Below, one piece after another: positions 55,315-59,026 of a stretch of DNA of 64,000 bases. The stretch is from a virus: the IMG/VR virus record IMGVR_UViG_3300032087_002755; one strand, 5' to 3'. A program made the position numbers and the translations under genes. How positions within the stretch are numbered: the stretch's first letter is position 1; the number at the start of each line of letters is the position of its first letter. The notes beneath the pieces were generated by a model. The model was not told the origin of the DNA and did no database searches. It saw only the letters and a list, made by a program, of their open reading frames with translations.

Positions 55315-55932
55315 ATGAAATACTATTATACATATCGAGTTTTATTTAATAATGGTGACTATTACTTAGGCCAACACATTACTGATAATTTAGAAGATGG
55401 TTATACAGGTAGTGGAAAGAAACTCAATGAGAGAACAGACCCTTTCACATTTGATATACTAGAATACTACAATTCAGCAAAAGAATTAAACATTGCAGAG
55501 GCTGAGTTGATTGGTGATTTATGGTATACAGACCCCAAGTGTCTCAATATGAAAGAAGGTGGTGTTGGTGGTTGGACTGCAGTTAATAAGACTTTAGATA
55601 GGTCTTATATGTTGACTGAAGAGTATCGTGAGAAAAGGAGACAAATTGCAGAAAGATTACATAAGGAAGGTAAAATCAAGTCATTCACAAAAGAAGCATC
55701 TCTTAAAGGACTTCTTAGAACGAGAGAACTATATCCACAAGGAACATTCCTAGGTAAGACACATACTGAAGAGACTAAGAAGAAGATTGGTCTGAATAGT
55801 GCAAAACACATGAAAGGTGAAGGCAATCCACAATATGGTAAAATGTGGATAACCAATGAACAGGAATCTACAAGAATCAATAAGGGTGAATCTATACCCG
55901 AAGGTTGGAGAAAAGGACGAGTTATCATATAG
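55315..55932 (+). mobile_element. Free-standing GIY-YIG (Seg-like) homing endonuclease with NUMOD3
   Basis: YTY..YLG..H..GYTGSG, AEAELI, NMKEGG; HTEETKKKI; between tRNA genes. Confidence 0.8.
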
Positions 55933-57470: not shown

Positions 57471-57920
57471 ATGACTCATAAACATCACATAATACCAAAA
57501 CACATGGGTGGAACAGACGACCCTTCTAATCTAATTACATTGACAGTAGAAGAACATGCACTTGCACATAAGAAAATATATGAAGAACATGGAAAAAGAG
57601 AAGACTACCTTGCATGGAAAGCTCTCAGTAAACAAATAGGCAATGAGGAGATATGGTTAAGAAGGTCTTCAATAGGTGGAAGAAATAATATGGGTAAACC
57701 CAAATCAGAAGAACATAGAAAGAAATTATCTAAATCAGTCAGTAAATACTTGACAGGTAAATACAAAGAAGGTGGTCATGGTGAGGAATTGAAACGAAAG
57801 ATATCCGAAAGTATGAAAGGTAACACCAATTCTAAGAACCACTCCTCTGAAGAATATAAAAGAAAACAATCCCTTGCAATGAAAAAGGCATGGGAGAAGA
57901 GAAAACAGAAGCTGGATTAG
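57471..57920 (+). mobile_element. HNH homing endonuclease with NUMOD3 repeats
   Basis: HHIIPKHMGG..NL..EEHALAH; KSEEHRKKLS; late promoter TATAAATA at 57458. Confidence 0.85.
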
Positions 57921-57985
57921 TTAAATCAGTATAACAATTGACTTGTAATCATTAGTAAGGGGAGCATAACCTCTATCCAGCACCA
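57911..57985 (+). tRNA. Atypical tRNA-Thr(UGU)
   Basis: GCTGGAT/ATCCAGC acceptor + ACCA; anticodon loop CTTGTAA; T-loop AGCATAA; D-loop lacks GG. Confidence 0.75.
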
Positions 57986-57990
57986 TATAC

Positions 57991-58027
57991 AGGGGGGTTG
58001 ACAATGACTCCCCTTTTTTCGTATAAT
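57991..58027 (+). promoter_or_regulatory. Early promoter copy 5 overlapping an intrinsic terminator
   Basis: TTGACA(57998)-ATGACTCCCCTTTTTTCG-TATAAT; AGGGGGGTT/GACTCCCCT stem + T run. Confidence 0.75.
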
Positions 58028-58033
58028 AATAGA

Positions 58034-58330
58034 GTAGGAAATCGAGACGGAAGTTAGTTGGTTGTGAGAGGTTGTTCCGTATAGATAAGGTGTTCCACAA
58101 TGTTAAAGTCAAATAAGACGTGGCATATAATCGTGAGTTGTGGAAGGAAACCGAACAGAGAAGCACTTGAAATCTTTGACGAATTGGAATAGTGTGGTAA
58201 ACGAATTTCCGTATGGTCACTACCTATTGACCTTAATAAAATTGGGGTAAGGCCTCACTAGAAGGACACGGTGTAAAGAATTGGGTATTAAAACCCAAGA
58301 CATTGAACGATTGTAGTCAAATAACAAAAG
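58034..58330 (+). ncRNA. Candidate large structured ncRNA of unknown class
   Basis: No + strand ORF in the track; own promoter; several nested helices; directly precedes tRNA-Asp. Confidence 0.6.
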
Positions 58331-58332
58331 TC

Positions 58333-58407
58333 GGTCTGTTAGTATATCGGTGAGTATGCCTCCCTGTCACGGAGGAGAGAGGGGTTCGATTCCCCTACAG
58401 ACCGCCA
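58333..58407 (+). tRNA. tRNA-Asp(GUC)
   Basis: CCTCC-CTGTCAC-GGAGG, TTCGA T-loop, GCCA end. Confidence 0.97.
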
Positions 58408-58536
58408 ACTTTCAATTGTTATAAATAATATTGTTACACAATTGTAACATAACTGAAACATTTAAGATACAAGAGTAAGTAGCCATATAGGTGAAGTCCA
58501 GTTGTCGGATAGTTTCTAACATAACAGGAGATAAAA

Positions 58537-58647
58537 ATGCGTAAATTAGCATCATTGTCTGCCTCGTATCTTAGGACACAAGCAGACAAATTCAATAAGT
58601 TAATGAAATCGGGACGACTTAATAAAGTAGTCAAATTAGTTTCATAA
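58537..58647 (+). CDS. Small basic peptide (36 aa, not in ORF track)
   Basis: AGGAG SD; late promoter TATAAATA at 58420. Confidence 0.55.
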   Translation: MRKLASLSASYLRTQADKFNKLMKSGRLNKVVKLVS

Positions 58648-58652
58648 TCCAC

Positions 58653-58681
58653 TTGACAGAAACCCATGTATCGAGTATACT
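58653..58681 (+). promoter_or_regulatory. Sigma70 promoter (leaderless)
   Basis: TTGACA-17-TATACT; ATG 6 nt downstream. Confidence 0.75.
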
Positions 58682-58687
58682 TAATAC

Positions 58688-59026
58688 ATGGGTTTTTTAA
58701 ATCTTAGTTCTAGTATTCGTTATTCCCCACATGGGAAAAAACGTAAGACGAATGCATTTAACAGACCAAAAAAATCCACTAAATATAAACAACTAATTGC
58801 AGAACAACAAAAACTTTATGACCAAGTGATGCAAGAGGTTGAAGATACGATTCCAAGTTGGGTAGGAACACATACAGGTGATATCACACCACGTAAAGAG
58901 CCTATGCAATACACTGGGGAACGTAAATTATTAGGAATCGCAACCATGCATAAATCGAACATGGTTCCTATCTTCGAAGAGGATAAAGAACATGCAATCG
59001 ATATTGCACGAATGCGAAGAAGTTAA
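58688..59026 (+). CDS. Conserved hypothetical phage protein
   Basis: YTGERKLLGIATMHKSNMVP. Confidence 0.7.
   Translation: MGFLNLSSSIRYSPHGKKRKTNAFNRPKKSTKYKQLIAEQQKLYDQVMQEVEDTIPSWVGTHTGDITPRKEPMQYTGERKLLGIATMHKSNMVPIFEEDKEHAIDIARMRRS

What the first reader, a model, noticed from the sequence alone, without database searches (positions are those of the whole stretch)
58034..58330. Unannotated ~300-nt highly structured RNA co-transcribed with tRNA-Asp
Seen: a near-consensus promoter (57998-58027) is followed by sequence with no + strand ORF in the track and nested helices: ACGGAAGTT(58047-55)/AATTTCCGT(58204-12), GTTGTTCCG(58071-79)/TGGAATAGT(58185-93), TTCCACAA(58093-100)/TTGTGGAA(58138-45), CCTTAAT/ATTGGGG and TTGGGT/ACCCAA. 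A possible long-range pseudoknot is GTGAG(58064-68)/CTCAC(58254-58). Frequent G-U pairs favour an RNA-level structure. I see no tmRNA, RNase P, SRP or group I signatures. Known: large ncRNAs such as GOLLD and ROOL sit beside phage tRNAs. Inference: a possibly new phage ncRNA class.
Basis: partly seen in the sequence, partly recalled or inferred. Interest (0 to 1): 0.75.

Follow-up and report, generated by a model that had tools for sequence, protein, structure and literature searches.

The report
New folded RNA gene of marine phages
This stretch is a real gene for a roughly 285-base folded non-coding RNA with two pseudoknots; it belongs to an uncatalogued family found in over 130 uncultured marine T4-like phage contigs, often joined to tRNA-Asp or tRNA-Glu genes, and its job is still unknown.

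Summary
Window 58034-58318 matches no Rfam 15 family, even at E = 10. It has no conserved ORF. It belongs to a family found in at least 132 IMG/VR contigs plus metagenome contigs, with 85 distinct sequences.

Conservation starts exactly at a perfect sigma-70 promoter (57998-58027). It ends a few bases before tRNA-Asp (58333). In most relatives the unit ends at an intrinsic terminator instead.

On 72 distinct members, a nine-helix fold with two pseudoknots pairs 98.5% of cells. 41 of 54 pairs show compensatory changes, and 0 of 500 shuffles reach that. Neither pseudoknot was in the search model. G-U pairs outnumber A-C 233 to 5, which fixes the + strand.

The only tRNAs within 15 nt are Asp(GUC) and Glu(UUC), on either side of the RNA. 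tRNA-processing enzymes would therefore produce about the same RNA ends as the promoter and terminator do.

Function is unknown. My best guess is a stable, early, trans-acting RNA that binds a macromolecule. A ribozyme or a self-assembling RNA remain open.

Other agents of this scan reported the same family on other genomes. I found no paper describing it.

The parts
57991..58014 (+). G+C-rich hairpin followed by a T run. Its loop holds the -35 box, so the terminator and early promoter form one composite unit (PeSL-like).
   Evidence: Terminator-like site found. L116 and L152 carry the same design with changed stem letters. PeSL motifs of T4-like phages are described in PMC4122927.
57998..58027 (+). 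Sigma-70 type early promoter, TTGACA-18-TATAAT. The predicted start is near 58034.
   Evidence: 12 of 12 matches. Sequence conservation with relatives begins exactly here while the upstream flanks are unrelated.
58034..58318 (+). Structured non-coding RNA gene. The mature 3' end probably lies between 58313 and 58332.
   Evidence: Full-length covariance-model matches of 347 bits (R1) and 282 bits (R2). No Rfam match.
58037..58042 (+). H0 5' strand (GGAAAT). Pairs with 58205-58210 and closes the 5' four-way junction.
   Evidence: 93.5% of cells paired, 5 of 6 pairs with double changes. L100 has a perfect GGAAUC/GAUUCC.
58047..58080 (+). H1 hairpin: ACGGAA 58047-52 pairs with TTCCGT 58075-80. The 22-nt loop carries the invariant AG.TGGtTG.
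   Evidence: 98.5% paired, 5 of 6 pairs with double changes. Loop invariants.
58089..58152 (+). H2 domain: outer GG/CC (58089-90 with 58151-52) and inner TCCACAA 58094-100 with TTGTGGA 58138-44.
Evidence: 99.4% paired, 7 of 7 inner pairs with double changes.
58108..58124 (+). H4 hairpin (GTCA/TGGC) inside the H2 loop. With its flanks it is the most conserved block of the family (TTAAArTCAAtTAAGACGTG..ATAT).
   Evidence: Invariant columns. A pattern scan with this block found more than 120 IMG/VR contigs.
58129..58134 (+). Pseudoknot 1 (H3) 5' strand AATCGT, lying in the loop closed by H2. Pairs with 58307-58312.
   Evidence: 99.5% paired, 5 of 6 pairs with double changes. 100% paired on a structure-blind alignment. 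It was not part of either covariance model.
58163..58195 (+). H5: GCACT 58163-67 pairs with AGTGT 58191-95. The interior holds the conserved GAAAtt and GGgA.
   Evidence: 98.6% paired, 5 of 5 pairs with double changes.
58205..58210 (+). H0 3' strand (ATTTCC).
58215..58232 (+). H6 hairpin (GGTCA/TGACC) with loop CTACCTAT.
   Evidence: 100% paired, 2 of 5 pairs with double changes.
58222..58224 (+). Pseudoknot 2, loop side (ACC of the H6 loop). Pairs with GGT at 58270-58272.
   Evidence: All 3 pairs show double changes: ACC/GGU, GCC/GGC (L174), AGC/GCU (L193), AGU/ACU (L197). Whether the pairing is within one molecule or between two cannot be told.
58243..58257 (+). H7 hairpin (TGGGGT/GCCTCA). 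It is absent from the 'short' clade.
   Evidence: 100% paired, 4 of 6 pairs with double changes. Deletion in the short clade seen.
58270..58272 (+). Pseudoknot 2, 3' side (GGT), within the block AAGGACACGGTGTAAAGAA.
   Evidence: The block's apparent invariance came from how the first homologs were collected.
58282..58297 (+). H8 hairpin (TGGG/CCCA, plus T-A in the window).
   Evidence: 100% paired, 2 of 4 pairs with double changes.
58307..58312 (+). Pseudoknot 1 (H3) 3' strand ACGATT, preceded by the conserved Ga.ATTGAA.
58333..58407 (+). tRNA-Asp(GTC), 15 nt after the model's end. RNase P cleavage at its 5' end would release the RNA's 3' end.
   Evidence: ARAGORN and Rfam at 59.8 bits. No terminator-like site on the + strand in between. 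L098 has the same junction.
57911..57982 (+). tRNA-Thr(TGT)-like gene upstream, separated from the RNA by the terminator/promoter unit.
   Evidence: Rfam tRNA at 49.3 bits. ARAGORN misses it in the window but calls tRNA-Thr(tgt) at the same relative place in L116 and L152.

Best explanation
Window 58034 to about 58318-58332 is a free-standing gene for a roughly 285-nt structured RNA of a new family.

Shown:
- It is a discrete conserved unit that keeps the same ends in unrelated genomic contexts.
- It folds into a four-way junction (H0 closing H1, H2 and H5) followed by three hairpins (H6-H8).
- Two pseudoknots lock the fold. The 3' end pairs into the loop of H2, and the H6 loop pairs with the H7/H8 linker.
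- About 85 positions, mostly unpaired, are invariant.

Inferred:
- The host RNA polymerase transcribes it early from a consensus sigma-70 promoter.
- In this phage the transcript runs on into tRNA-Asp, and RNase P cleavage at the tRNA 5' end frees the RNA.
- In other phages the same ends come from a terminator, from a downstream tRNA-Glu, or from 3' processing of an upstream tRNA-Asp.
- The mature RNA acts in trans as a folded molecule. Most likely its invariant junctions and the H4 loop bind and hold a host or phage macromolecule, possibly one belonging to the translation or tRNA apparatus.

The target and the effect are not known.
For: Boundaries:
- Identity of about 93% starts at the -35 box and stops before the tRNA or terminator, and the flanks are unrelated.

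Family size:
- 53 metagenome loci.
- 85 distinct sequences.

Fold:
- 98.5% of cells paired, 41 of 54 pairs with changes on both sides, 0 of 500 shuffles reach this, and slid controls give 36-46%.
- Both pseudoknots are supported although absent from the models.
- The structure-blind MAFFT alignment gives 93.4% and 28 of 51 pairs.

Strand and coding:
- 233 G-U pairs against 5 A-C.
- No conserved ORF.

End formation:
- tRNA-Asp lies 5 nt upstream in 19 contexts and 8-15 nt downstream in 2.
- tRNA-Glu lies 7-15 nt downstream in 8 contexts.
- No other tRNA lies within 15 nt.

Modularity:
- L180 and L222 join a type-A 5' domain to the short clade's 3' domain.

Trans action:
- In most contexts nothing lies downstream to regulate, because a bidirectional terminator faces the capsid gene.
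Against: - There is no expression data for any member.
- The single sequence is no more stable than shuffles (z = -0.01). The supported nested helices give -34.8 kcal/mol against an MFE of -60.0.
- No partner protein gene is consistently adjacent. The neighbours are a NifU-like protein, a CHASE2 cyclase, gp55, a methyltransferase and small ORFs.
- The binding or decoy mechanism is pure inference.
- The 135-kb contig G001 carries the RNA but only tRNA-Ala and tRNA-Ser, so a role tied to phage tRNA-Asp or tRNA-Glu is unlikely.
- The cultured relatives Melnitz, Mosig and HTVC008M lack the RNA, so it is dispensable for the phage type.
Confidence: 0.55

Rival explanations
1. The RNA is a ribozyme. 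The invariant unpaired nucleotides around the H2/H3 pseudoknot and the H4 loop would form an active site that acts on RNA, for example on tRNA precursors or host tRNAs.
For: The size, two pseudoknots and 85 invariant, mostly unpaired positions are typical of large ribozymes. The RNA is repeatedly fused to tRNA genes. The order of strands H2-H4-H3-H2'-...-H3' resembles the P3/P7 pseudoknot of group I introns (read from the fold; recalled from memory, not tested).
Against: No match to any ribozyme family in Rfam at E up to 10. There are no exons and no P4-P6 equivalent. The long-range helix crosses H2, unlike P4 of RNase P. Phages that carry the RNA but no adjacent tRNA are the majority.
Confidence: 0.12
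2. The RNA self-assembles into dimers, rings or cages, like phi29 pRNA, ROOL or GOLLD.
For: Covariation cannot tell pairing within a molecule from pairing between molecules. The 3-bp H6-loop/linker pairing covaries. ROOL and GOLLD are phage RNAs often found near tRNA islands, and they form RNA-only cages (bioRxiv 10.1101/2024.12.08.627333). In 92 loci the gene lies within 3 kb of the major capsid gene.
Against: At 260-290 nt it is far smaller than ROOL or GOLLD. The short clade lacks H7 and the 5' half of the linker block, so pseudoknot 2 cannot form there in the same way, yet the RNA persists. There is no direct evidence of oligomers.
Confidence: 0.12
3. The region is only a long leader or processing scaffold of the tRNA-Asp precursor, acting in cis.
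For: There is no terminator between the RNA and tRNA-Asp in the window. Abutting tRNAs occur in about a quarter of contexts.
Against: 97 of the 107 contexts that have downstream sequence carry no tRNA within 100 nt downstream, and most end at a terminator facing the capsid gene. In the short clade the tRNA is upstream. The fold is kept regardless of the neighbour.
Confidence: 0.03
4. It is a highly diverged member of a known RNA family (RNase P RNA, two-piece tmRNA as in the related phage Melnitz, a group I intron, 6S or SRP RNA).
For: Related pelagimyophages carry a two-piece tmRNA (PMC9004378). Short strings recall RNase P conserved regions (AAAGTC, ACAGAGA), but this is a resemblance by eye only.
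Against: ARAGORN finds no tmRNA. No Rfam family reaches E = 10 on the window's copy or on a divergent member. There is no T-arm and no conserved tag frame. The topology differs from RNase P.
Confidence: 0.03
5. It is not an RNA gene but a small protein gene or a DNA-level element such as an origin or a protein-binding array.
For: A 99-codon ORF exists on the minus strand (57921-58220). The block ACACGGTGT is nearly palindromic.
Against: The ORF has no family match and overlaps the promoter and the tRNA-Thr gene. Longest ORFs are not conserved in strand or place. The substitutions are compensatory in helices. The excess of G-U over A-C (233 to 5) shows selection on one transcribed strand.
Confidence: 0.01

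Closest known systems
GOLLD and ROOL RNAs (large ornate phage and prophage RNAs)
   Same: Encoded by phages, often next to or among tRNA genes, sometimes covalently linked to a tRNA. Elaborate pseudoknotted folds supported by covariation. No partner protein, and function unknown.
   Different: No sequence or structure match to the Rfam models. Less than half their size (260-290 nt; GOLLD members often exceed 800 nt). A different helix layout. Restricted to marine T4-like myoviruses. Oligomerisation untested.
Phage T4 rnaC and rnaD (species 1 and 2 stable RNAs)
   Same: Small stable RNAs of unknown function inside the tRNA gene cluster of a T4-type phage, next to a GIY-YIG homing endonuclease, and presumably released by tRNA processing (annotation of NC_000866).
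   Different: No homology: the best R1 score in the T4 cluster is 5.7 bits. rnaC ends in a tRNA-like T-arm, which this RNA lacks. They are 119 and 139 nt.
phi29 pRNA (packaging RNA)
   Same: Phage-encoded structured RNA made early (own knowledge). A short covarying loop pairing (here ACC with GGU) could be intermolecular.
   Different: No homology. T4-type packaging needs no RNA (own knowledge). The RNA is absent from the related cultured phages.
Two-piece tmRNA with glutamine riboswitch of Melnitz-type phages
   Same: A large structured RNA behind an early promoter in the nearest cultured phage lineage (PMC9004378).
   Different: No tRNA-like domain and no tag frame. Not found by ARAGORN or by the Rfam tmRNA or glnA models. 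Melnitz, Mosig and HTVC008M have no copy of this RNA.
PeSL cassettes of T4-like phages
   Same: The gene is bounded upstream by a composite stem-loop and early promoter. It occurs as a movable unit in several hyperplastic regions, with recombinant forms (PMC4122927).
   Different: PeSLs describe how the cassette moves, not what its cargo does. Here the cargo is an RNA rather than an ORF.

Membership tests
GOLLD / ROOL (Rfam) | Match to the family covariance model | tested here: not met
   cmscan of Rfam 15 at E up to 10 gave no GOLLD or ROOL hit on window 57800-58700, on 58030-58322, or on the divergent member L009.
GOLLD / ROOL (Rfam) | Phage-encoded, located at tRNA islands | tested here: met
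   All members lie on T4-like phage contigs. About a quarter abut tRNA-Asp or tRNA-Glu.
GOLLD / ROOL (Rfam) | Homo-oligomeric cage | not testable with these tools
   Needs native gels or cryo-EM.
RNase P RNA | Match to the bacterial, archaeal or type-T RNase P models | tested here: not met
   No hit at E up to 10.
RNase P RNA | Nested long-range P4 helix flanked by the conserved CR-I and CR-V sequences | tested here: not met
   The only long-range helix (58129-34 with 58307-12) crosses H2, so it is a pseudoknot. Its flanks (ATAT....ATTGAA) are not the CR-I/CR-V consensus as I recall it.
tmRNA (one- or two-piece) | tRNA-like acceptor/T-arm domain and a tag reading frame | tested here: not met
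   ARAGORN finds no tmRNA in the window. No Rfam tmRNA hit. Short frames are not conserved.
Group I intron | P3-P7 pseudoknot together with a P4-P6 domain, flanking exons, and a match to the model | tested here: not met
   Only the crossing order of H2 and H3 resembles P3/P7. A 4-bp hairpin stands where P4-P6 would be. A promoter lies directly upstream, so there is no 5' exon. No Rfam hit.
T-box-like tRNA sensor | A specifier triplet that changes with the cognate tRNA | tested here: not met
   The GAC-containing H4 loop is the same in Asp-linked and Glu-linked members, as is the GAC-containing linker wherever that linker is present. No gene is regulated downstream.
T4 rnaC / rnaD | Sequence or structure homology | tested here: not met
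   R1 with filters off on the T4 tRNA cluster: best score 5.7 bits, and it does not fall on rnaC or rnaD.
PeSL-bounded mobile cassette | Stem-loop terminator fused to an early promoter at the cassette border, with the same cassette in different neighbourhoods | tested here: met
   Hairpin 57991-58014 encloses the -35 box. At least five different neighbourhoods and recombinant forms were seen.

The most novel reading that the evidence does not exclude
The RNA is a new functional class of large RNA from abundant ocean viruses. In either case it is made in bulk at the start of infection and released by the cell's own tRNA-processing enzymes.
Probability: 0.2. Interest if true: 0.9.

Novelty: categorically new. 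Interest (0 to 1): 0.72.

Why it matters
- Large RNAs with complex, conserved folds are rare, and nearly every one studied has revealed new biochemistry (ribozymes, riboswitches, RNA cages).
- This one is carried by T4-like myoviruses that are common in seawater. It sits behind a consensus early promoter and has a compact double-pseudoknot fold with about 85 invariant positions.
- It gives a well-defined molecule of about 285 nt that can be made in vitro for probing, cryo-EM, pull-downs and activity tests.
- It adds a third, unrelated example to the unexplained link between phage tRNA islands and ornate RNAs (GOLLD, ROOL).
- It shows tRNA-processing sites and promoter/terminator pairs being used interchangeably to define the ends of one RNA.
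- The covariance models built here would let this gene be annotated in viromes, where it is currently read as an empty gap behind the capsid gene.

Tried and rejected
- Rfam at gathering and at E = 10, on the window and on two element-only stretches: nothing but tRNAs.
- INPHARED phages by blastn and megablast: only the tRNA-Asp part matches.
- No whole genome is held for the window.
- MFE stability: z = -0.01, so uninformative.
- The 18-mer GGACACGGTGTAAAGAAT looked invariant. Hits outside the family proved to be chance: six GTDB genomes, soil and brackish contigs, and L022, where it lies inside a 421-aa ORF. Its invariance came from collecting homologs with that very string. A scan with another block found clades where it varies or is deleted.
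- tmRNA idea, prompted by Melnitz: rejected.
- RNase P and group I resemblances seen by eye: not supported by the models or by the topology.
- T4 rnaC/rnaD homology: rejected.
- Melnitz, Mosig and HTVC008M: no copy.
- Constant protein neighbour: none.
- Specifier-like switch between Asp-linked and Glu-linked members: none.
- Dependence on phage tRNA-Asp or tRNA-Glu: contig G001 has neither.
- Exhaustive scan for further covarying helices: none convincing.
- The catalogue of 8,495 IMG/VR candidate RNAs (PMC10690425) lists only motifs of 29-151 nt, and its supplementary sequences are not held. I could not check whether fragments of this RNA are listed there.
- One literature search was wasted on too loose a query.

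Full report
**What is in the window.** The region lies in a tRNA island of an uncultured marine T4-like phage.
- ARAGORN finds tRNA-Ala, tRNA-Ser and tRNA-Asp (58333-58407).
- Rfam adds a fourth tRNA at 57911-57982.
- A GIY-YIG/NUMOD3 gene and an HNH/NUMOD3 homing-endonuclease gene sit among the tRNAs.
Its -35 box sits in the loop of a terminator-like hairpin at 57991-58014.
- No terminator-like site on the + strand lies between the promoter and tRNA-Asp.
- No Rfam family matches 58034-58330, even with permissive filters at E = 10.
- Taken alone, the sequence folds no better than shuffles (z = -0.01).

**A discrete conserved unit.**
- A 22-mer from the region found six IMG/VR contigs. In the alignment, about 93% identity begins exactly at the -35 box and ends about 15 nt before the tRNA. 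Both flanks are unrelated, and in those contigs the unit ends at an intrinsic terminator.
- In L005 every other gene is on the opposite strand. The unit lies between a small ORF and the major capsid gene and converges on the capsid gene.
- The capsid protein is about 64% identical to those of Methylophilales phage Melnitz and Pelagibacter phages Mosig and HTVC008M.
- The 30-codon ORF of the window is cut by a stop codon in relatives.

**Size of the family, and a trap.**
- Scans with an 18-mer, with a gapped pattern and with a 19-mer gave 69 IMG/VR loci and 53 metagenome loci that match a covariance model over its full length.
- The 18-mer looked invariant. Hits outside the family were chance: six GTDB genomes, soil contigs, and L022, where it lies inside a 421-aa ORF.
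It added 63 loci, all of which match the model.
- In these new clades the 18-mer varies or is partly deleted, so its invariance came from how I had collected homologs.
- In all there are 85 distinct sequences of 215 nt or more.
- Melnitz, Mosig and HTVC008M have no copy. No INPHARED phage matches beyond the tRNA.

**The fold** (window coordinates):
- H0: 58037-42 with 58205-10. It closes a four-way junction.
- H1: 58047-52 with 58075-80.
- H2: 58094-100 with 58138-44, plus an outer GG/CC.
- H4: 58108-11 with 58121-24, inside the H2 loop.
- H5: 58163-67 with 58191-95.
- H6: 58215-19 with 58228-32.
- H7: 58243-48 with 58252-57.
- H8: 58282-85 with 58294-97.
- Pseudoknot 1: 58129-34 (in the H2 loop) with 58307-12.
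- Pseudoknot 2: ACC 58222-24 (in the H6 loop) with GGT 58270-72.

**Support for the fold.**
- On 72 distinct sequences, 98.5% of cells are paired and 41 of 54 pairs show changes on both sides. No shuffle of 500 reaches this, and sliding the partners gives 36-46%.
- The two pseudoknots were not in either model. Even so they are 99.5% and 97-100% paired, with double changes in 5 of 6 and 3 of 3 pairs.
- Examples for pseudoknot 2 are ACC/GGU, GCC/GGC, AGC/GCU and AGU/ACU.
- A structure-blind MAFFT alignment of 15 sequences still gives 93.4% and 28 of 51 pairs. RNAalifold found pseudoknot 1 on its own.
- G-U pairs outnumber A-C 233 to 5, so the promoter strand is the RNA strand.
- An exhaustive scan found no further convincing helices.

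I tested it on 30 sequences. Only TTCCACAA/TTGTGGAA and the core of TTGGGT/ACCCAA hold. The two long 5'/3' pairings, CCTTAAT/ATTGGGG and the GTGAG/CTCAC pseudoknot are paired in 78-87% of cells. They gain no consistent compensatory change and compete with well-supported helices.

**Conserved core and modularity.**
- 85 of 281 columns are invariant. Most are unpaired: AG.UGGuUG in the H1 loop, UUAAArUCAAuUAAGACGUG..AUAU around H4, AACAr.ga, GAAAuu, GGgA, AAACGA, uAUGGU, ACCU.rAuAAAA and Ga.AUUGAA.
- A 'short' clade of about 261 nt lacks H7 and half of the linker block and has a larger H6 loop.
- L180 and L222 join a type-A 5' domain to that short 3' domain. The two 3' domains therefore appear interchangeable.

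**Contexts and ends.**
- The major capsid gene lies within 3 kb in 92 loci, usually convergent.
- Among 116 distinct contexts, the only tRNAs within 15 nt are Asp(GUC) and Glu(UUC). tRNA-Asp is 5 nt upstream in 19 contexts and 8-15 nt downstream in 2, including the window. tRNA-Glu is 7-15 nt downstream in 8.
- Where a tRNA abuts the RNA, tRNA processing would place the RNA's ends within a few bases of where the promoter and terminator place them elsewhere. This supports the gene's boundaries independently.
- The 135-kb contig G001 has the RNA but only tRNA-Ala and tRNA-Ser. The RNA therefore does not depend on phage tRNA-Asp or tRNA-Glu.
- No protein gene is a constant neighbour.
- The hairpin-plus-promoter border matches the PeSL cassettes that shuffle genes in T4-like phages. 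That explains the many locations and the recombinant forms.

**Comparison with known RNAs.**
- GOLLD and ROOL share the phage origin, the tRNA neighbourhood and the unknown function. The Rfam 15 scans, which I take to include their models, do not match, and the present RNA is much smaller.
- T4 rnaC and rnaD occupy the same kind of place but are not homologous.
- tmRNA, RNase P and group I introns fail their defining features.
- A 2023 catalogue of IMG/VR candidate RNAs lists only motifs up to 151 nt, and I could not search it by sequence.
- Two earlier follow-ups of this scan described the same family on other genomes and reached the same view. I confirmed their main claims independently. I also add the two pseudoknots, the wider clades, the Asp/Glu restriction and the correction about the 18-mer.

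**Function.**
- Nothing here shows what the RNA does.
- An early consensus promoter, a compact knotted fold and invariant unpaired blocks fit a stable trans-acting RNA that binds a macromolecule. So do the lack of any downstream gene to regulate and the absence of a partner gene. I take this as most likely (about 0.55, including the gene model).
- A ribozyme and a self-assembling RNA, with pseudoknot 2 formed between molecules, remain open at about 0.12 each.
- A mere tRNA leader, a diverged known RNA, or a coding or DNA element is unlikely.

Noticed in passing
window 57911-57982: Rfam calls a tRNA here (49.3 bits; the anticodon loop reads UGU, so Thr) with an odd T-loop. ARAGORN misses it in the window but calls tRNA-Thr(tgt) at the same relative place in L116 and L152. 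The stop codon of the HNH gene (57471-57920) overlaps its first bases.
   Followed up: partly
window 55315-55932 and 57471-57920: Two free-standing homing-endonuclease-like genes sit between the tRNA genes: one GIY-YIG-like with a weak NUMOD3 match, and one HNH plus NUMOD3. T4 has a comparable arrangement, with segB inside its tRNA cluster next to rnaC and rnaD.
   Followed up: partly
window 58409-58448; also L152, L199 and L204 just downstream of the RNA: Repeated near-palindromes of the type TTGTTACA / TTGTCACA / TGTGACA follow the RNA or tRNA unit in several unrelated contexts, often next to further TTGACA promoters. They could be binding sites for a regulator. In the window they gave only weak CRISPR-repeat-like Rfam noise.
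   Followed up: no
L185:7506-9338 (- strand) and about 25 related loci: A 611-aa phage gene with CHASE2 and adenylate/guanylate cyclase domains lies a few hundred bases upstream of the RNA in one clade. This is a sensor-cyclase carried by a marine myovirus.
   Followed up: no
L223:1996-2478 (- strand) and about 27 loci: A NifU/IscU-like Fe-S scaffold gene is carried by short-clade phages. My ORF caller put its end about 15 nt before the RNA in many loci, where ARAGORN places a tRNA-Asp gene. I did not reconcile these two placements. A gp55 late sigma factor gene lies about 0.8-2.7 kb downstream of the RNA in 15 loci, on the opposite strand.
   Followed up: no
L104:2798-3081 (-) and L150:57-281 (-): L104 joins the 5' end of the L033 type to a type-A body, which breaks H1 and one pair of H0. 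L150 has an unrelated sequence in place of the 5' domain. These are either natural recombinants or assembly chimeras.
   Followed up: no
window 58281-58298 and the flank pair 58281/58298 in relatives: The position pair flanking H8 runs through U-A, U-U, C-C, A-C, C-A and C-G among clades. This hints at a non-canonical pair rather than a simple extension of the stem.
   Followed up: partly
window 58653-58700: A second strong promoter (TTGACA-17-TATACT, 11 of 12) lies about 250 nt downstream of tRNA-Asp. It is followed at once by a hairpin (CCCATGTAT...ATACATGGG plus a T run) and the start of a 112-aa ORF at 58688. This is another compact early unit.
   Followed up: no
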